From Tepidisphaerales bacterium (GTDB lineage Bacteria; Planctomycetota; Phycisphaerae; Tepidisphaerales; Tepidisphaeraceae): 24,473 bases of DNA. The position numbers and the translations under genes are program-made. Where the stretch lies: positions 1 to 24,473 of the forward strand of contig JBBQCK010000001.1 in assembly GCA_038318605.1 (NCBI GenBank). Direction: 5' to 3'. The notes beneath the pieces were generated by a model. It was not told where the DNA came from and made no database searches. It saw only the letters and a list, made by a program, of their open reading frames with translations. Shown in pieces: positions 2,841-17,974 of the stretch (position 1 is its first letter; the number at the start of each line of letters is the position of its first letter).

Positions 2841-2933
2841 GTCGATCCGCAAGAAGAGCTGCGGTCCTTTTGGGCGTTCGCTCGCCCCCGGGCTCGTTCC
2901 AACGCCCAAGCGCGATGCATTCGGCCCGGGAGT

Positions 2934-2962
2934 ACACTATGAATCCACCACGAACGTGTCAA
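2934..2962 (-). promoter_or_regulatory. Sigma70-type promoter for the kinase gene
   Basis: Minus strand TTGACA (2962-2957), 17-nt spacer, TAGTGT (2939-2934). Confidence 0.65.
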
Positions 2963-3225
2963 GAATTTTGATGGAAACCGACATTTTTGACATTTTGCCC
3001 ACCCTGCCCAGTCCGCAAATAACGCCCCCGCCGTCAGTTTTTTGACAGCTGCGTCACCACCGCGTCAAATCAACGCTCTGGCCTTTGACGCAGGATGCGG
3101 GCCAATTCGAAGGACACGCCCTATCGTCGATGACTAGCGGTAGTCACCGCCGACGCCAAGCAAAAGTCACACGCGAACCATATCTCGAATCGAAATTCCG
3201 CCGCGGCAGACCGCTGGCTGCGTGT

Positions 3226-6200
3226 TTAAACCTCCGCCGCCGGCGTCACCGGCAATTCATCCGGCGGTATTTCGCTGCTCAAAAACTCCTCCACCGCGTG
3301 CGACAGCCGCTCTTCCGCGCCGGCCGGGTCGCGGAAATAGTGCGGCGACCAGATGCGATGCAGCGCCCAGCCCTGGGATTTATGAACTTCCGTTCGGAAC
3401 AAATCCCATTCGACCGGATCTTCCGCGCCCGCGAATCGTGAGGCATCACACAGCACGCCAAGCGTCACATCCGCCGGGCGGGTCGGGTGGCGCAAGGCGA
3501 TATCAATGCAGAAGCCGGCGTTGCCCCAGTTCACCTGATTGGCCACCCCATGCACATCCGCAAGCCGCCGCCCGAGCGCCGCGGCGAACGGCGAGGCGCT
3601 CGCCGGCTCGTTTACATCGCACCGCGCCGCCGGCATCCCGGCCGAGCGCTCCAGAATCTCATGGCCCCGCTCGTATGCCGCGCCAAGAGACTCCGCGAAT
3701 TGCAGATAGCTGAACAGCAGCCAAGCGCCCGTCGGCACACCACCCGGCGGCACCGGCGGCAGCGAGCGATAAACCCCCGGCGGAATCGATGTCACCAGAT
3801 GCACCTCCTCGCGGGCCCGCGTCACCAGCACGTTCAATCGCCGCCCACCGCCGGCCGACGCAAGCGGACCAAACCTTCGGTAAAATTTCCCGCGCGCATC
3901 CGGCCCATACGTCGTTGAGATGATGATGTGATCGCGCTCGTCTCCCTGTACGTTCTCCAGATTCTTGACGATCAATCCCTCGAATGATCCGCGCCCTACC
4001 CGGGTGCGCGCCTCGGCAAATCGCCGGGCAAACTCGTTATCTTCCTCAACAAGATCATCGAGCTTTTCCAAAATCAGATCGCGCTGGACCACATTGAAGC
4101 ACGCGATTCCGATCGATGGCGGCGATGCGCGCTTCAACAGATCGCGCACAATCTGACACACCCGATCCGCCTCGGCCGGATTGGCGCTTTTTTCATACAC
4201 GCCATCGGCATGGTCGATCGTCAGCGGTGCAAACCGCGCCCGATGTTTGGGATGTCCCGGAATTGCCTGAAGCCGCGACCCATAAAAGTTCTGGTTGCTG
4301 AATTCGATCAAATCCGCGTTGCGGCTGCGGTAATGCACATCGAGATATGATTCCTGAATTTCCATATTCAGCGAGGCCGACAGAAGATCTTCCGTTTCGG
4401 ATTGCTGAAGCTCGAACAACTCCTGATCGCTCTCGATCTCCCGGTCATTGCTCGCCACCGCCGCAGATTCAAAAAATCGCGTCGGCGGAAGTTGCTTCTG
4501 ATCCCCGGCCACCACTACCCGCCGCGCCCGCGTCAGCACCGGCAGCGCCTCTTCCAGACGGCATTGCGATGCCTCGTCAAAAATCACAACGTCGAACAAC
4601 ATCGCGCGCGGAAAAATCTGCGCGACAGTTTCCGGGCTTGCCATCCAGATCGGCCGAAGGTCAAACAGCGGATCGCCCTCTTCAGTCTTCCCGCCCAGCT
4701 CGATCACCTTCCTCAGTCGCATCGCCTTGGTGCCGTGCAGCATGAACCGGCGCTTGACGTCTGCCCCAATCGAGTTAAGCCGCGAACCCGTGGCCGCGAG
4801 AAGCCTCTCTTTCTGCCGGCCGACCCACCGATGCAGGATCGCGTCGCGAATCAGCGCCCGCTTGGCCAGCGACAATTCGCTGAATCGATCGAACGCCTCC
4901 TGAATGTGATGCGCATCGATGGCCTGAAGGTCTGGCGCCGCCTGCAAACGCCGCGCAATCTCTCCCGCCAACACTGATTTCTTAACCACCGCCAGTGCAA
5001 TATGCGGGTCGATCCGGCCATCAATCATCGCCCTGGCCGCCCCCGTCAACGGCGCCGGCAGCGCCTCCAGCGCGTGCGCAACGCGGATCACGCCCTCCAG
5101 CGTCTCGATCGACTCCGCCATCGCCGACGACTCACGCGCGATGGCGCGGTTGGCGAGCAAAGCATCGTTGAAGTCCGCGATCCCCTTCGCCGACACGACG
5201 CCCGTTGAATGCCACGCACCAATCGCCGCCGCGATTGCTTCCGCTCGCGCCGCGGATTTTTTAAGACCGCCAATCAGCTTCGCCGCGTGTGCGCTATCGG
5301 TCATTGCCTGCAACACACCATCACGCAGGCCTGCCATGGCCGGATCGATGTAAACATTCGACAATGCTTTAACGATCACCCCGTGCGAGGTCAGCCCCTC
5401 CTCAAGGGCCTCATCCGCGATCGGACCGGCCGGCGCAGGCTGACGCGACACATCGCTGTAAATCTGTGTAAGAATCAGTCGCTCGCGAAGCTGCTGCAAA
5501 AATGCCCTGAGCCTTTCAGCATCGTCCGCGCCCAACGTCAACCCATATTGCGTCATGACATCCGACGCCAATGCCTTCTGCTTGAAGTGAATAAAAGCAT
5601 GCCACTTGCGCGCGAATCGCAGATAGGCATCGAGCGTGGAAATCTGCCGCGCAACGGCCGCGATCGTCGGCCCGGCGGCGCGCGCCGCGATGGCCAGATC
5701 GGTGTCCAATCGCTTTTGCCGAAGTCGCTGAAGCATCGGCTCGGCATCGGCGATCTGCTGGCGGCCCGTCGCAATCGACCTCGCGTCGCGCTGCGACCAG
5801 GCCTGGCGTAGGTCCGTCGATGCGCCAGCCATCGCCTTCTCAAGTAGCGACGCCATGTGCAAGCGCGCCTCCCCTTGCGCCGCGGCCGGTATTTCCCGCA
5901 AAAATGGTGGTATCGATTCATCCAGCGTCGCGTCGGCCGCAATTGCGCTTGCCGCAGCCGCGGCTGTCGCGCTGCGAACATCGGCCATCGACCGCTGCAA
6001 AAATTCCGCCAGCGTCACACCTGTTCTCGATGCCCACGGATTGACCGCAAAATCCACGCTCAGCGCCCGCCGAAGCAATTCCCCCATCGCGGCCGTCTGA
6101 CTCTCAAATTGCGCCGGCGAAATCGTCGCCAGATCCGCTTTGGGCTGAAGAGCCGGCTCCGGCAGATCGAGCCAGTCGCCAATTAATTCGTGCACCGACG

Positions 6201-12059: not shown

Positions 12060-12415
12060 GATGTGTTGGCGCAGGTGTCGTTGCGGCAGTTGCTTTGGTT
12101 TCCGCCGAATCAGAAGGATCGGGCTGCTTGCAGCGGTGGCGGAACAAGGTAGGGCAGAAGTCGGTGGATTTTGTGGTGTGTGAGGCGGGGACGTTGCGGC
12201 CGCTCGTCGTGATCGAGTTGGATGAGCCTTCGCACGCCAAGCCGGAGCGGCAGACGAGGGATGAGGACGTCGAGGCGATCCTCGGGGCCGCGAAGTTGCC
12301 GTTGTTGCATGTCCTCACGTCGCGAAATTACGACACCCGCGAACTGGAGGCGGCGATCGGGCCTTTTCTGGGTGCCATCGTCCGCCCCAATCCGCCACCC
12401 ACGATCCGAGGCTAA
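12060..12415 (+). pseudogene. 5'-truncated, frameshifted DUF2726-like gene
   Basis: Frame A DVLAQVSLRQLLWFPPNQKDRA(A) joins frame B LQRWRNKVGQKSVDFVVCEAGTLRPLVVIELDEPSH...RDEDVEAILGAAKLPLLHV by a single missing base at ~12127-12128; the N-terminal part is absent. Confidence 0.75.
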
Positions 12416-12539
12416 TCCCTCCTCGCTTGATGCTATCCCGGCCTCCGACCCGTCCGGCGCGCCCAACATGCGTGAGAAAGCAGCGCTGTCACTCCGCCCC
12501 CCTGCACTCTTCCCCTCCAACCCCCTACAATCCCGCCCC

Positions 12540-13475
12540 ATGGGCTTCTTTCAGAAAACGCGCGACAAGCTGATCCGCGCACTTCGCAAAACGGCGCAGG
12601 TGCTCGATACCGATATCCGCACGCTCTTCATTCCCGGGCGGCAGATTGATGATGCGTTTCTTGGCGAACTTGAATCCAAGCTCATCCGCGCCGACATGGG
12701 CGTGCGAAACGTTGATCGCATCGTCGCCGCGGTGCGCGAGCGCTGGCGGCTTGGGAAGCTTCGCAACGCATCCGAAGCCGAGGGAATCGTCCGCGAGCAG
12801 CTCATGGCCGGCTGGCCGGAGCAGAATCGCGAACTCGCCATCGCGCCGGCCGGGCCGACCGTCATCCTTGTTGCCGGCGTCAACGGCGCGGGCAAGACAA
12901 CCAGCATCGCCAAACTGGCCTGGCTTCTGACGCAGGTCGAGAAGAAAAAGGTCATGCTCTGCGCCGGCGACACATTTCGGGCGGCCGCCGTTCAGCAGCT
13001 TGGCATCTGGGCCGACCGGCTCGGCGTCGAGATCGTCAAACATCGCCAGGGCGCCGACCCCGCGGCCGTCGCCTATGACGCCGCCGAGGCTGCCAAAAGC
13101 CGCGGTATGGATGTGCTGATCGTGGACACCGCCGGCCGGTTGCCGACACAGGAACCGCTGATCCGCGAACTGGTTAAAATTCGCGACGTCGTTGCCCGGC
13201 GCATCGAAGGCGCGCCCCACGAAGTCCTGCTCGTTCTCGACGCCACCACCGGCCAAAACGCCGTCAACCAGGCCCGCGTCTTCGGCGCCGCGATTGACGT
13301 GACCGGCATCTTCCTTGCCAAACTCGACGGCACGGCCAAGGGCGGCGTGGTCATGGCCATTCGCGACCAACTCCAAATCCCGGTAAAATTCATCGGCTTG
13401 GGCGAAACCCCCGAAGACATCGAAACCTTCGACCCCAGCCGCTTCATCGGCGCACTGTTTGGCCAGGCAGAATGA
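12540..13475 (+). CDS. ftsY: Signal recognition particle receptor FtsY (NG domain only, 311 aa)
   Basis: GVNGAGKTTSIAKLA, DTFRAAAVQQL, DPAAVAYDA, DTAGRL, DATTGQNA, AKLDGTAKGG, GLGE..DIETFDP. Start ATG 12540 (MGFFQK). Confidence 0.96.
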   Translation: MGFFQKTRDKLIRALRKTAQVLDTDIRTLFIPGRQIDDAFLGELESKLIRADMGVRNVDRIVAAVRERWRLGKLRNASEAEGIVREQLMAGWPEQNRELAIAPAGPTVILVAGVNGAGKTTSIAKLAWLLTQVEKKKVMLCAGDTFRAAAVQQLGIWADRLGVEIVKHRQGADPAAVAYDAAEAAKSRGMDVLIVDTAGRLPTQEPLIRELVKIRDVVARRIEGAPHEVLLVLDATTGQNAVNQARVFGAAIDVTGIFLAKLDGTAKGGVVMAIRDQLQIPVKFIGLGETPEDIETFDPSRFIGALFGQAE

Positions 13476-13627: not shown

Positions 13628-13875
13628 CAGAGCATGAACAGTGCTCTGACGCCCGAATCAGGATGCCTTTGGTGATCTGGCATCGAGTTCGGGCGCGGCT
13701 TCAGGGCCGGCCGCCCCTTTTGGGGTCCCGACCTGAATCACCGCATGGCAGGAATCGGTCCTGAGCGCTTTAGCGCTATGTGCTGCATACGTCCGCCTCG
13801 CCGGTTGGCTTGGCTCGAACATGCAGGCTGGCGTCGTGCTTCGGCCAACCTTTAGCCTGCTGCCGCGCTGGCCCG
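13628..13875 (+). ncRNA. Structured RNA of unknown class in the recA 5' region
   Basis: Stems CAGAGCA/TGCTCTG (13628-48), CGCCCGAA/TTCGGGCG (13650-95) with inner GATGCC/GGCATC, TTCAGG/CCTGAA (13700-37) with CCCC-TTTT-GGGG, CAGGA/TCCTG, AGCGC/GCGCT, GGTTGGC/GCCAACC, GCAGGCT/AGCCTGC, GCGCGGC/GCCGCGC. Family not recognised. Confidence 0.4.
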
Positions 13876-13949
13876 TTGCCGCCGCGAATCAGATCACCAT
13901 GACCGGCCGGCTGAACCACAGACCCGGCCAATATCCAAAGGAGGCCCAC

Positions 13950-15140
<1,191 letters not shown>

Positions 15141-15147
15141 CAGGTCA

Positions 15148-15185
15148 AACGCGGGCGCGGCAACCCCAGCCGCCGCGCCCGCGTT
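15148..15185. repeat. 14-bp perfect GC-rich inverted repeat just after the recA stop (REP-like or stabilising hairpin)
   Basis: AACGCGGGCGCGGC (15148-61) / GCCGCGCCCGCGTT (15172-85), 10-nt loop, no U-tract. Confidence 0.75.
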
Positions 15186-15350
15186 CATCTTTCGCGCCCC
15201 TATGCACATTGTGAAAATCCAACGAGCCTCTCGGCCGGACCAGGCCGCACCCCCTTCCAGCTAAAACCCGCCTACGCGGCGATGGTCGCAGCGTTGGCCG
15301 GATATGCGAAATGCCTTTTATGCCGTCCACATCAGGCCAATCGCCCCCTG

Positions 15351-15399
15351 CTGCTCGCTCCCGGCTCCCTACTACCTGCCACTTACCCCCTACTACTCC
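15351..15399. repeat. Heptamer tandem tract, 7 degenerate units (consensus CYMCCTA)
   Basis: CTGCTCG CTCCCGG CTCCCTA CTACCTG CCACTTA CCCCCTA CTACTCC, contiguous and abutting a terminator. Confidence 0.65.
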
Positions 15400-15402
15400 A
15401 AT

Positions 15403-15437
15403 AAAAAACCCCTCGCCTGAGCAAGGGGTCTTTGTTT
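15403..15437. terminator. Bidirectional intrinsic terminator, stronger on the minus strand
   Basis: AAAAAA-CCCCT-c-GC-CTGA-GC-a-AGGGG-TCTTTGTTT: the minus-strand reading ends in TTTTTT, the plus-strand reading in TCTTTGTTT. Confidence 0.75.
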
Positions 15438-15521
15438 ACCGTGAGGGGTGCAATCCGTTGCTTCGGGGGCTGGACGACTCCGTCGCCCGCTTGTACCCAT
15501 CCGTCCCGAATCCCTTCGGTG
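15403..15521 (-). ncRNA. Candidate ~120-nt CsrB/RsmZ-like small RNA
   Basis: Own promoter and U6 terminator on the minus strand; four ANGGA motifs (15515-11 AGGGA; 15504-00, 15483-79, 15458-54 ACGGA), three in hairpin loops (CCGAA-GGGA-UUCGG; GGGCGA-CGGAG-UCGUCC; GCAA-CGGA-UUGC). Confidence 0.6.
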
Positions 15522-15527
15522 GCGCGA

Positions 15528-15555
15528 AAAATATCAGGAGTTTTTCCGGCCGCAA
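15528..15555 (-). promoter_or_regulatory. Extended -10 promoter driving the candidate sRNA
   Basis: Minus strand TTGCGG (15555-15550), 16 nt, TG-a-TATTTT (15536-15528). Confidence 0.45.
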
Positions 15556-15625
15556 GCAAAATAAGCGGAAATTGAAAGAAAAATTTGTTGGTACGATGGG
15601 TAACGCCGACTCAATTCGGCCTCGC

Positions 15626-17974
15626 ATGATACCGCCGACACCGCAAATCGCCGCTGGTTTTTTACAACTGGAGCATCCTGCCGCATTGTGGGTTGGGGTC
15701 GGCGTTGCAATTATTGCAGGCATCGTCTGCGTGCGAGCCAGCCGGCCACATGGGGCGGCATGGCTAATAGCCGCCATTGTTTCGCTGGCCTGCGCGGCGG
15801 CCGGCATGTCGATTCTTCGGCCAGAGCGCCAGCGGGTCGCTGTCATGGTCGATCTGTCCGCCAGTACGCGCACTGCGCGCTATCGTGACCCGGCACAGTT
15901 GAACCATCGCATATCGCAACTCGTGGGCGATACACCGCGTGATATCATCTATTTCAGCAACGGGCAGCATGATATTAAAGGCACACCCTCGCGCCTGCCG
16001 GACCTGCCGGGTGACCACACTGTATTCGCCGCGCCGCCGCGGTCGGCCGTGGTGCTGTTCAGTGACGGTCAGTTCGCAGCGCCCGAGGGTGGTGCACCTC
16101 CAACATTCTCCGTGATCGATCCGGGTCTCGACTCGCCGCGCGATGCGTCGGTTCAACAAGTCGAATTGCAGAAAGATGCGGAGACTTCAGGCATTATCGT
16201 GACGGCTTTCAATTCGACCGCGCGTGAGCTGCCGGTGCGGGCTGAGTTTCGATCCACGTCCATGCCAGCAGACTCAGCCGCGGGCCAAGCCGGCGTCGTC
16301 GCCACGCCCGGCGGCGCCTCGATACTGCAAATTCCGATTCCGTCGGCGGCGTCCGAGGTTGCCGTCGCCATCGAGAGCGCTGATCCCTGGCCGGAAAACA
16401 ATGCGATGCGCATTCGCATCCCGCCGCCGGTTCAGCAGCAGCGGTGGTGGGTGTCGGAGCGTGACCCCGCGCCAGAGGGTTGGCGGATTGTTCGGCCGAG
16501 CCTGCTGCCGGCGGCGCCGGCGGAGTATCTCGCGCCTTCGGTCATCGTATTGGACAATGTTTCATTGCCTTCGCTGGGGCCGCAGCGTTCGAGCCGCATC
16601 GTTCAATATGTACGCGACCTGGGCGGTGCATTAATCCTGAATGGTGGCGAGCATTCGTTCGCGGCCGGCGGGTACACAGGTTCTTCGATCGACTCGCTGT
16701 CGCCGCTGGCCAGCACGCCGCCGCTTCCGGCACGGCAATGGCTGCTGCTGCTTGACGTCAGTGGTTCCATGCAGGCAGCGACCGCCGGCGCCGGAAATCT
16801 ATGGGACGCGGAACTTCACGCAGCGCGAGGTTTGCTTGCGGCACTCCCGCCCGATGACGTTGGCATTGTCGGGGGTTTCTCGGCCGATCTGCGCTGGTGG
16901 TCGGCGGTGGTGCCGATCCACCAACTCGCCGATATCCCCCTGCCGCCGGCGGGTACATCGCCGCGCGGTACGACCAACCTTGAACCCGCCCTGGTCGCGG
17001 CGCTACAAAACTCCGCCACGGATCGCCCAGTCGAAATTATGCTGGTCACCGATGCAGAGGCCGAGATCAATGACACCGCAGCGCTCGCCGATCAACTTAA
17101 GTCGCATCGCGCGCGGCTGAGTGTCCTGGCGATTGGCGACGGACCGGCGATTAATGCGCTGGAACAACTCTGTCGCCAATCGAATGGCCGACTCGTGCGG
17201 CAGCCGGATCCGCACCAGTGGATGGGCGCGCTCGATGATCTTGGCCGGCAGGCAATCGGCGACAATCTGATCCGCGAGAAGCGCCGGATCATTTTCGCCG
17301 GGCGCATGAAGCAAACATCCGCAAAAAGTCTTTCAGTCATGAATCGCACCTGGCTCCGCAGTGGCGCAGCTCTGCTGGCAACGACGGACGACCCCGAAGC
17401 GATTCCGGCAGCGGCTTCGTGGAATGCCGGCGCGGGAAATGTGCTGGGTATCGCGTTTCAAGCAGATGCGGATTTCGTTGGCGAGATGGCCCAAACAATC
17501 GCACGACCGCCGGTCGATCCGCGATTGCGCCTCACCTGGCAGACCGGCCGGCCGGCGCGTCTGACGATCGAAGCGCGTGATGGACAGCGATGGATGAACG
17601 ATCTGAAAATCGCCCTAAGCCTTTCGACCGACGATGGCGCAAAAGTCGTCCCCGCCGATCAAACCGCGCCGGGCCGCTATGAAGCCGTCTTCGAGCCGCC
17701 GAGCCGGCCGACGCTCGCGATGGTGGCAGTCGGTGGCGAGATTTTGGCGCGCCACGAGATTGCCGGCCGATATTCAGCCGAGTTTGAACATCCCGGCGTC
17801 GATCGCGCTTCGCTGGAACAACTGGCTCTTCGCACCGGTGGCTTGGTGATTGAACCGTCGAAAACCACGCCGATCGACTTTCATTTTCCCGTCGAAGACA
17901 TGCCTCTGGGATATTGGCTTTCCGGATTGGGCGCGCTGCTCGCTGGCATCGGCCTGCTCCGCGCCCGGCGGTGA
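15626..17974 (+). CDS. Membrane-anchored protein with two vWA-like modules and a class I glutamine amidotransferase-like domain (~782 aa)
   Basis: N-terminal TM pair; VMVDLSAS..VLFSDG; IVLDNV..YVRDLGGALILNGGEHSFAAGGY; LLLDVSGSM..GTTNLEPAL..LVTDAE; C-terminal TM. Start uncertain (15596 or 15626). Confidence 0.8.
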   Translation: MIPPTPQIAAGFLQLEHPAALWVGVGVAIIAGIVCVRASRPHGAAWLIAAIVSLACAAAGMSILRPERQRVAVMVDLSASTRTARYRDPAQLNHRISQLVGDTPRDIIYFSNGQHDIKGTPSRLPDLPGDHTVFAAPPRSAVVLFSDGQFAAPEGGAPPTFSVIDPGLDSPRDASVQQVELQKDAETSGIIVTAFNSTARELPVRAEFRSTSMPADSAAGQAGVVATPGGASILQIPIPSAASEVAVAIESADPWPENNAMRIRIPPPVQQQRWWVSERDPAPEGWRIVRPSLLPAAPAEYLAPSVIVLDNVSLPSLGPQRSSRIVQYVRDLGGALILNGGEHSFAAGGYTGSSIDSLSPLASTPPLPARQWLLLLDVSGSMQAATAGAGNLWDAELHAARGLLAALPPDDVGIVGGFSADLRWWSAVVPIHQLADIPLPPAGTSPRGTTNLEPALVAALQNSATDRPVEIMLVTDAEAEINDTAALADQLKSHRARLSVLAIGDGPAINALEQLCRQSNGRLVRQPDPHQWMGALDDLGRQAIGDNLIREKRRIIFAGRMKQTSAKSLSVMNRTWLRSGAALLATTDDPEAIPAAASWNAGAGNVLGIAFQADADFVGEMAQTIARPPVDPRLRLTWQTGRPARLTIEARDGQRWMNDLKIALSLSTDDGAKVVPADQTAPGRYEAVFEPPSRPTLAMVAVGGEILARHEIAGRYSAEFEHPGVDRASLEQLALRTGGLVIEPSKTTPIDFHFPVEDMPLGYWLSGLGALLAGIGLLRARR

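What the first reader, a model, noticed from the sequence alone, without database searches (positions are those of the whole stretch)
15403..15555. Hidden ~120-nt minus-strand sRNA with four ANGGA motifs: CsrB/RsmZ-like outside Gammaproteobacteria
Seen: an apparently empty intergenic gap contains a minus-strand promoter (TTGCGG-16-TGnTATTTT) and a terminator whose U6 tract faces that strand. The predicted transcript is GCCACCGAAGGGAUUCGGGACGGAUGGGUACAAGCGGGCGACGGAGUCGUCCAGCCCCCGAAGCAACGGAUUGCACCCCUCACGGUAAACAAAGACCCCUUGCUCAGGCGAGGGGUUUUUU. It carries AGGGA, ACGGAUG, ACGGAG and ACGGAU within 62 nt, three in short hairpin loops. Established: CsrA/RsmA binds ANGGA in hairpin loops, and CsrB/RsmY/RsmZ sRNAs are multi-GGA decoys ending in an intrinsic terminator, characterised mainly in Gammaproteobacteria. 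Inference: a CsrA-sequestering sRNA in a planctomycete-like host.
Basis: partly seen in the sequence, partly recalled or inferred. Interest (0 to 1): 0.78.

Follow-up and report, generated by a model that had tools for sequence, protein, structure and literature searches.

The report
Conserved small RNA with CsrA-type loops
A roughly 120-base non-coding RNA gene sits between recA and a vWA gene in an uncultured planctomycete (order Tepidisphaerales), is conserved in the nearest genus, and displays the GGA hairpin loops that the regulator CsrA binds, so it is probably a CsrA-binding decoy RNA in a phylum where none has been described.

Summary
Window 15403-15523 (minus strand) carries four ANGGA motifs in 62 nt, short GGA-loop hairpins and a 9-bp terminator with U6. 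Of 233 terminator-like sites in this genome, it is the only one with four ANGGA upstream; the next best has two.

It looks like a real gene. A covariance model found one copy each in two genomes of the nearest genus (Tepidisphaerales MAGs), each in a different gene neighbourhood. All three copies have a promoter-like element at the same distance, compensatory stem changes, G-U pairs that favour this strand, and unchanged GGA loops. A 1-nt indel argues against a coding frame. No Rfam family matches.

The genome has two csrA genes. One lies in a fliW-csrA-flagellin cluster whose flagellin leader has the same ACGGAG loop over its ribosome-binding site. The other is fused to a cytidine-deaminase domain.

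CsrA binding and transcription are untested, because no RNA-seq run holds this DNA. Only about three GGA sites are both conserved and exposed.

This scan had earlier flagged a different, non-homologous candidate CsrA sponge behind mraZ in another planctomycete. I found a similar GGA-hairpin-rich mraZ-rsmH region in this genome too.

Verdict: a credible new sRNA family, with a CsrA-decoy function plausible at about 45%.

The parts
15556..15595 (-). AT-rich tract upstream of the -35, UP-element-like. It lies in the divergent region shared with the vWA gene start.
   Evidence: Read from the sequence. Equally AT-rich tracts sit at the same position in G059 and G107, in genomes of about 60% GC.
15550..15555 (-). 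-35-like hexamer TTGCGG
   Evidence: Read from the sequence. The homologues have TTGAAA at the equivalent place. It falls below the consensus-scan threshold.
15528..15536 (-). Extended -10-like element TGaTATTTT
   Evidence: Read from the sequence. The hexamer lies 3 nt upstream of the first aligned column, exactly as TAGATT does in G059 and G107.
15403..15523 (-). Predicted sRNA transcript, about 120 nt
   Evidence: Covariance-model homologues in G059 and G107 span exactly this unit. BLAST similarity between G059 and G107 is confined to 131 nt. No Rfam match.
15506..15519 (-). Local hairpin CCGAA-GGGA-UUCGG. It is an alternative to the outer stem P1 and is not conserved in genus g59.
   Evidence: Its GGA has an unpaired probability of only 0.49.
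15499..15504 (-). Linker ACGGAU in the internal loop of stem P2. The homologues carry AUGGA(U/C) a few bases away.
   Evidence: Alignment. Unpaired probability 0.68, 0.96 and 0.38 in the three RNAs.
15472..15488 (-). Hairpin H2, GGGCGAC-GGA-GUCGUCC, with GGA as the loop
   Evidence: The 12-mer GCGACGGAGUCG is identical in G059. G107 has GCGA-UGGA-UCGC, so the closing pair is replaced and GGA is kept. Unpaired probability 0.95-1.0.
15450..15461 (-). Hairpin H3, GCAA-CGGA-UUGC. ACGGAU is invariant.
   Evidence: Genus g59 has GGUCA-CGGA-UGACC: two stem pairs change on both sides while the loop is unchanged. Unpaired probability 0.84, 0.49 and 0.99.
15434..15443 (-). Conserved single-stranded CA..GUAAA block before the terminator
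   Evidence: Conserved columns in the alignment.
15403..15429 (-). Intrinsic terminator: 9-bp stem, UCAG loop, U6. It is usable in both directions.
   Evidence: Three stem pairs covary among the homologues.

Best explanation
Window 15403-15523 (minus strand) is an independent gene for a structured non-coding RNA of about 120 nt. It has its own sigma-70-type promoter with an AT-rich upstream tract and its own intrinsic terminator.

The RNA folds into a junction that exposes three conserved GGA sites: a single-stranded A(C/U)GGAU and two short hairpins with GGA in the loop. One of these, in the sister genus, is the textbook CsrA site UCACGGAUGA.

The most likely function is to bind the host's CsrA-family proteins and compete with their mRNA targets. 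That makes it a small RsmX/Y/Z-sized decoy with a capacity of roughly one to two CsrA dimers.

Shown here: the motifs, the fold, conservation with covariation, the strand, and the presence of CsrA and of matching sites in the flagellin leader. Inferred: transcription, CsrA binding and the regulatory effect.
For: Rarity:
- Four ANGGA in 62 nt against 0.17 expected.
- It is the only one of 233 terminator-like sites with more than two ANGGA upstream.

Homologues:
- A single-sequence model found G059 at 29 bits.
- The two-sequence model then found G107 at 85 bits. These were the only convincing hits in 141 family genomes.
- RecA identity (90% and 86%, others 85% or less) makes that genus the nearest one.
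- The three copies lie in three unrelated neighbourhoods, and similarity between G059 and G107 stops at the ends of the RNA.

Structure:
- 97% of cells form pairs, against 37-44% when the partners are slid.
- Nine pairs change on both sides; RNAalifold finds 10 covarying pairs.
- Eleven G-U pairs on this strand become mismatches on the other strand.
- A 1-nt indel inside H2 between G059 and G107 argues against a conserved reading frame.

GGA sites:
- The GGA loops of H2 and H3 are invariant while their stems change.
- Their ensemble unpaired probability is 0.5-1.0.

CsrA:
- Two csrA genes are present.
- One lies in a fliW-csrA-flagellin cluster. Its flagellin leader has a UGGAUU-loop hairpin and a CAAUC-ACGGAG-GAUUG hairpin over the ribosome-binding site.
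- The same xCA-CGGA-UGx hairpin type is repeated in the mraZ-rsmH spacer of this genome and of five relatives.

Background:
- No Rfam family matches.
- From the literature, CsrA recognises GGA in hairpin loops and is common in Planctomycetota (PMC13443453). sRNA antagonists are described for Gammaproteobacteria, whereas FliW is assumed elsewhere (PMC7652899, PMC4682653).
Against: - No expression data exist. Only one DNA run holds the locus, and no RNA run was listed for it or for the G059 locus.
- The window's promoter is a weak consensus match, and the scan tool called none.
- Only about three GGA sites are conserved and accessible, which is few for a sponge. The loops are 3-4 nt rather than the classical hexaloop, so the closing pairs would have to open.
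- The 5'-proximal GGA is paired or not conserved.
- The family was found in only 3 of 141 genomes, covering 2 genera.
- With three sequences, two of them close, the covariation statistics are thin.
- The alignment used for pair counts was fitted to the model's structure.
- One CsrA paralogue has a FliW partner, the antagonist normally thought to replace sRNAs.
Confidence: 0.45

Rival explanations
1. It is a real, conserved trans-acting sRNA that works in some other way. It might base-pair with mRNAs through its conserved single-stranded blocks, or bind a different protein. On this view the GGA loops are Shine-Dalgarno-like or structural features, not CsrA sites.
For: All the evidence for a genuine sRNA gene applies equally here. 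Conserved single-stranded stretches other than GGA exist, such as the CA..GUAAA block before the terminator. Only about three GGA sites are exposed.
Against: The invariant nucleotides concentrate on the GGA loops and their ACGGAU/ACGGAG flanks while the stems drift. The same motif occurs in the flagellin leader next to fliW-csrA. Two small loops that both contain GGA are unlikely by chance, roughly 6e-4 from base composition by my estimate.
Confidence: 0.3
2. There is no separate transcript. The hairpin at 15408-15429 is a bidirectional or plus-strand terminator ending a long recA 3' UTR. The GGA hairpins next to it are chance features of GC-rich intergenic DNA.
For: The terminator has a usable plus-strand tail, CUUUGUUU. 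The window promoter is weak and was not called by the scan. No transcript evidence exists. GC-rich DNA forms many hairpins: 196 clusters of three or more GGA-loop hairpins occur genome-wide.
Against: The same unit of about 125 nt, from promoter to terminator, recurs in G059 and G107 without recA or the vWA gene nearby. Compensatory changes and G-U pairs favour the minus strand. recA has its own long GC hairpin right after its stop codon. The candidate is the extreme outlier among 233 terminators.
Confidence: 0.1
3. It is a cis-regulatory leader, such as a riboswitch or attenuator with a terminator as its expression platform, controlling a downstream gene.
For: The layout is a structured domain followed by an intrinsic terminator. 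In G107 a co-directional GFO/IDH/MocA oxidoreductase gene follows.
Against: In the window and in G059 the next gene on that strand's path is convergent: recA and an FKBP-type isomerase respectively. No common downstream gene exists, and no riboswitch family matches.
Confidence: 0.04
4. It encodes a small protein. A 58-codon TTG-initiated frame runs from 15559 to 15383 on the minus strand.
For: An open frame covers the region.
Against: The frame would start upstream of the predicted promoter and run through the terminator. G059 and G107 differ by a 1-nt indel inside H2. The substitution pattern preserves base pairs rather than codons.
Confidence: 0.01

Closest known systems
RsmX / RsmY / RsmZ (PrrB) sRNAs of Pseudomonas and relatives (Rfam RF02144, RF00195, RF00166)
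   Same: From my own knowledge of those families:
- Similar size, about 110-130 nt.
- A handful of GGA motifs shown in short hairpin loops and single-stranded linkers.
- A Rho-independent terminator at the 3' end.
- A stand-alone gene with its own promoter.
- A/UCANGGANGU/A-type sites; H3 in genus g59 reads UCACGGAUGA.
   Different: - No sequence or structure homology: no Rfam hit even at E up to 10.
- Fewer exposed GGA sites, about three.
- Loops of 3-4 nt.
- The host is a planctomycete with a FliW-CsrA pair.
- No GacA/UvrY-type upstream activating sequence was identified, and I did not look for one systematically.
CsrB / CsrC of Enterobacteria (Rfam RF00018, RF00084)
   Same: The proposed mechanism is the same: an RNA with repeated GGA loops that titrates CsrA away from mRNAs (PMC7652899).
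   Different: From my own knowledge, CsrB and CsrC are 250-370 nt with 13-22 sites; this RNA is a third of that size with about three sites. There is no homology. In this genome the closer analogue of CsrB is the GGA-hairpin-rich mraZ-rsmH spacer.
hag (flagellin) mRNA leader bound by CsrA in the FliW-CsrA-Hag partner switch (Bacillus subtilis, Campylobacter)
   Same: This genome has fliW-csrA-flagellin. Its flagellin leader has two GGA hairpin loops, one over the ribosome-binding site. Its ACGGAG loop is the same hexamer as in H2 of the sRNA.
   Different: That is an mRNA target rather than a decoy. In those systems the known antagonist is the protein FliW, not an RNA (PMC7652899, PMC4682653).
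Candidate CsrA-sponge RNA behind mraZ in Phycisphaeraceae
   Same: Same phylum and the same proposed partner. The xCA-CGGA-UGx hairpin type is shared. This genome and five relatives have a comparable mraZ-rsmH region.
   Different: That region is several hundred nt long, has ten or more hairpins and is tied to mraZ. The covariance model of the present sRNA does not match it.

Membership tests
CsrB/CsrC/RsmX/RsmY/RsmZ/RsmW (Rfam families) | Match to the family covariance model (sequence plus structure homology) | tested here: not met
   cmscan of the window at gathering thresholds found only a tRNA. A permissive scan of 15100-15700 at E up to 10 found no Csr/Rsm family. The homologous loci L054 and L055 also gave none.
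Csr/Rsm-type protein-titrating sRNAs (functional class) | Several GGA motifs exposed in hairpin loops or single-stranded linkers | tested here: met
   There are 4 ANGGA and 5 GGA in the body. Three sites are conserved in all three homologues and are mostly unpaired in the ensemble. The number is at the low end for the class.
Csr/Rsm-type protein-titrating sRNAs (functional class) | Stand-alone transcription unit ending in an intrinsic terminator | tested here: inconclusive
   The terminator and a position-conserved promoter-like element are present in all three copies. The window promoter is weak, and no transcript data exist.
Csr/Rsm-type protein-titrating sRNAs (functional class) | A CsrA/RsmA-family protein encoded by the host | tested here: met
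   Two PF02599 matches score above cut-off in the window's genome. Copies are also present in G059 and G107. The known RNA-binding residues L2, L4, R6 and R44 are visible in both translations (residue roles are from my own knowledge).
Csr/Rsm-type protein-titrating sRNAs (functional class) | Direct, GGA-dependent, high-affinity binding of CsrA, with relief of CsrA-mediated repression | not testable with these tools
   Complex prediction does not fold protein-RNA jobs. This needs EMSA or ITC and a reporter assay.
Csr/Rsm-type protein-titrating sRNAs (functional class) | Transcription driven by a GacA/UvrY-type response regulator through an upstream activating sequence | not tested
   Only shared AT-rich tracts were seen upstream. 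I made no search for a palindromic UAS or for BarA/UvrY orthologues. The literature reports that FliW and BarA-UvrY are anti-correlated (PMC4682653), and FliW is present here.

The most novel reading that the evidence does not exclude
Phycisphaerae planctomycetes may run an RNA-decoy layer for CsrA alongside FliW. It would consist of a long multi-hairpin RNA in the mraZ-rsmH spacer plus this small RsmZ-sized sRNA. One client would be the conserved CsrA-cytidine-deaminase fusion protein, so the decoys would gate a deaminase that is aimed at GGA hairpins, possibly an RNA editor acting on ACGGA-type sites.
Probability: 0.08. Interest if true: 0.85.

Novelty: new member of a known kind. Interest (0 to 1): 0.62.

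Why it matters
RNA antagonists of CsrA have been characterised in Gammaproteobacteria. Everywhere else, Planctomycetota included, the protein FliW is assumed to do that job (PMC7652899, PMC4682653). CsrA is nevertheless very common in Planctomycetota (PMC13443453).

A conserved, RsmZ-sized RNA with canonical CsrA sites, in a genome that also has FliW, would show that the two kinds of antagonist can coexist. It would also show that GGA-decoy RNAs arose independently outside the Proteobacteria.

The question is directly testable. The RNA is short, and the two CsrA domains can be made recombinantly. The hosts are uncultured MAGs and the family is narrow (two genera), which limits its immediate reach.

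Tried and rejected
- Synteny: the vWA orthologues in 29 family genomes have no recA within 1.5 kb upstream, so the recA-vWA spacer could not be compared.
- A plain DNA search of 40 relatives with 221 nt found nothing.
- No paralogue was found in the window's own genome by blastn or nhmmer.
- A protein-seeded scan of metagenome contigs with the vWA protein found no close relatives.
- Exact-pattern scans (H2 + CCCG + H3) gave 34 metagenome and 29 genome stretches. Rescoring with the model kept only the two already known, G059 = L115 and G107 = L121.
- Weaker model hits in other genera and families were inspected and rejected. G079, G156, G128, G020, G062, G036, G002, G023, G025, G030, G100 and G127 turned out to be terminators, coding sequence or unrelated short elements without GGA loops.
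- The sRNA model does not match the mraZ-rsmH RNA.
- RNA evidence: one DNA run holds the window locus. No RNA run was listed for it or for the G059 locus.
- Complex prediction with a CsrA dimer plus the H2-H3 RNA was not folded and gave no information. It counts neither for nor against binding.
- Literature searches for CsrA with Planctomycetes, CsrA-deaminase fusions, and mraZ with CsrA found no prior description.
It only appears in tallies and as one rejected weak hit.

Full report
**1. What is there**

The window has ftsY (12222-13475), recA (13821-15140) and a 792-aa membrane vWA protein (15596-17974), all on the plus strand. recA and the vWA gene are separated by a 455-nt gap.

- AGGGA, ACGGA, ACGGA and ACGGA lie within 62 nt.
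- There are three short local hairpins with GGA in the loop: 15506-15519, 15472-15488 and 15450-15461.
- A 9-bp GC-rich stem-loop (15408-15429) is followed by U6.

The genome is 60% GC. ANGGA is expected 0.17 times per 62 nt, and only 36 clusters this dense exist in 6.4 Mb of strand sequence. Nine places in the genome have four or more GGA-loop hairpins within 80 nt, and this is one of them.

I also scanned for intrinsic-terminator-like sites and counted ANGGA in the 95 nt upstream of each. Of 233 sites, 191 had none, 36 had one, 5 had two, and only this one had four.

The minus strand folds better than shuffled controls (-50.8 kcal/mol, z = -3.06). The plus strand does not stand out (z = -1.56).

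The scan tool reported no promoter.

**2. Is it a gene?**

The window's genome is a 67%-complete MAG of 611 contigs and the only species of its genus held. The one public run that holds the locus is a sediment metagenome.

- Plain DNA search of relatives found nothing.
- The recA-vWA arrangement is not conserved in the family.
- A covariance model built from the single sequence (R1) picked up a 29-bit match in genome G059. It shares the 12-mer GCGACGGAGUCG of hairpin H2, a CCCG block, an H3 hairpin with the same CGGA loop on a different stem (GGUCA/UGACC instead of GCAA/UUGC), a CA..GUAAA block and a terminator.
- A two-sequence model (R2) then found a third copy in G107, same genus as G059, at 85 bits. 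Nothing else convincing appeared in 141 family genomes.
- A three-sequence model with the RNAalifold structure (R3) added no further members. I searched 40 relatives of G059 and the five next-nearest genera at lax filter settings.
- Exact-pattern scans of the metagenome and GTDB genome collections recovered only these two. Their record titles read 'MAG: Tepidisphaerales bacterium' and 'MAG: uncultured Phycisphaerales bacterium'.
- RecA is 90% and 86% identical to G059 and G107, and 85% or less to all other genera. That genus is therefore the nearest relative, and the RNA looks vertically inherited within a small clade.

**3. Evidence that the conserved unit is an RNA gene on this strand**

- G059 and G107 share 79% identity over 131 nt. 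They share nothing on either side, at the DNA or the protein level.
- The neighbours differ in all three genomes:

| Genome | Neighbours |
|---|---|
| Window | recA and the vWA gene |
| G059 | an FKBP-type isomerase, tRNA-Ser and a serine recombinase |
| G107 | an unknown ORF and a GFO/IDH/MocA oxidoreductase |

- All three have an AT-rich tract, a -35-like hexamer and a -10-like hexamer. These are TTGAAA-17-TAGATT, TTGAAA-16-TAGATT and TTGCGG-16-TATTTT. In each, the -10 ends three bases before the first aligned column.
- On the model-fitted alignment, 97% of cells form standard pairs, against 37-44% when the partners are slid. Nine pairs change on both sides. This alignment leans toward the structure, and three sequences are few.
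- RNAalifold independently predicts an outer stem P1, an inner stem P2 enclosing H2, then H3 and the terminator, with 10 covarying pairs.
- Eleven G-U pairs on this strand would be A-C mismatches on the other strand. G107 folds at -59.1 kcal/mol on this strand against -44.5 on the other.
- G059 and G107 differ by a 1-nt indel inside H2 (GACGGAGUC versus GAUGGAUC), which is hard to reconcile with a conserved reading frame.
- No Rfam family matches the window or the homologues.

**4. What the conservation points to**

The invariant positions are concentrated on the GGA sites.
- H2 keeps GGA as its loop while its closing pair is replaced.
- H3 keeps ACGGAU while two stem pairs change on both sides.
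- The internal loop of P2 keeps an A(C/U)GGA(U/C) a few bases apart in the two genera.

Ensemble unpaired probabilities, in the order window / G059 / G107:

| Site | Unpaired probability |
|---|---|
| H2 GGA | 0.95 / 1.0 / 1.0 |
| H3 GGA | 0.84 / 0.49 / 0.99 |
| Linker GGA | 0.68 / 0.96 / 0.38 |

The 5'-proximal GGA is paired or not conserved. The RNA therefore offers about three accessible sites, not four or five.

H3 in the sister genus reads UCACGGAUGA. From my own knowledge, this fits the RsmE/CsrA consensus A/UCANGGANGU/A at every position.

**5. The CsrA side**

The genome has two csrA genes.

The first follows fliW and precedes a flagellin gene. The flagellin leader folds into a GGCUCCG-UGGAUU-CGGAGCC hairpin and a CAAUC-ACGGAG-GAUUG hairpin whose loop overlaps the ribosome-binding site. 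This is the classical two-site CsrA target, and it carries the same ACGGAG hexamer as H2.

The second is a 227-aa protein with a CsrA domain fused to a cytidine/cytosine-deaminase domain. The fusion is matched at full length in a single frame in about 45 of 141 family genomes, G059 among them.

The roughly 770-nt mraZ-rsmH spacer of this genome contains several xCA-CGGA-UGx hairpins. The same region in five relatives has 10-20 GGA-loop hairpins per 1.3 kb, against about 2.7 expected from the genome-wide density. It is not homologous to the small RNA.

So the organism appears to use this hairpin type repeatedly. That raises the odds that the small RNA is a CsrA ligand.

**6. What remains open**

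Nothing shows that the RNA is made or that CsrA binds it. No RNA-seq run holds the locus or the G059 locus. The complex predictor does not handle protein-RNA jobs.

Three exposed sites in 3-4-nt loops are at the low end for a sponge. The RNA could equally be a CsrA-regulated or base-pairing sRNA.

I put about 0.8 on 'a real sRNA gene' and about 0.45 on 'an sRNA that acts by binding CsrA'.

**7. Comparison and novelty**

In function it resembles RsmX/Y/Z in size, GGA loops, terminator and stand-alone gene. It is not a member of any Csr/Rsm Rfam family.

The published picture confines Csr-type sRNAs to Gammaproteobacteria and assigns FliW to the other phyla, Planctomycetes included (PMC7652899, PMC4682653). 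CsrA is prevalent in Planctomycetota (PMC13443453). I found no paper describing such RNAs in this phylum.

I therefore class it as a new, non-homologous member of a known kind of regulator. Its evidence base is computational, and its known distribution is narrow.

Noticed in passing
L002:1492-2175 (+), equal to G000:C206:3586-4266; not in the window: The second csrA gene encodes a 227-aa fusion of a CsrA domain (aa 4-55) and a cytidine/cytosine-deaminase zinc-binding domain (aa 87-179). About 45 of 141 family genomes, G059 among them, match it at full length in a single frame; in G107 it is split over two frames. I found no paper on such a fusion.
   Followed up: partly
L145, equal to G000:C55, about 2911-3679 (-); also L147-L151 in five relatives: The mraZ-rsmH spacer of about 770 nt is non-coding and packed with GGA-loop hairpins of the xCA-CGGA-UGx type. 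Relatives show 10-20 per 1.3 kb, against about 2.7 expected. It has no Rfam match and is not homologous to the small RNA.
   Followed up: partly
L001:1263-1400 (-), equal to G000:C286: In the fliW-csrA-flagellin cluster, the flagellin leader has a UGGAUU-loop hairpin right after csrA. It also has an ACGGAG-loop hairpin over the ribosome-binding site. Together these form a textbook CsrA-repressed leader.
   Followed up: partly
window 15200-15400 (-): Downstream of the sRNA terminator, the minus strand is G/A-rich with further GGA motifs (UUGGAGU, AGGGAG, CGGGAG, GUGGAC). A second weak terminator-like hairpin lies at 15268-15282. A longer read-through isoform is conceivable, but this stretch is not conserved in G059 or G107.
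   Followed up: no
window 15140-15192: recA is followed directly by a long, nearly perfect GC hairpin with a poor U tail. It is probably recA's own terminator or a stabilising 3' structure.
   Followed up: no
window 15311-15626 (+): The vWA reading frame is open from 15311, and in-frame ATGs lie at 15596 and 15626. Orthologues align only from residue 18-75 onward, so the true start is uncertain. The vWA promoter must overlap the sRNA promoter region.
   Followed up: no
L036:1773-3090, equal to G059:C539: In G059 the sRNA gene lies next to a tRNA-Ser that is followed by a large serine recombinase gene. This is a possible integration hotspot and may explain why the sRNA's neighbourhood differs between genomes.
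   Followed up: no
L157:1501-1567 (-), L160:521-587 (+), L138:1230-1296 (+): Three other genera (G100, G127, G019) share a different element of about 67 nt: CGGGAAAGUAGGU...CCrGCAUUU..AUAC, followed by a terminator. It surfaced as weak model hits. It may be another small RNA family and is unrelated to the GGA RNA.
   Followed up: no
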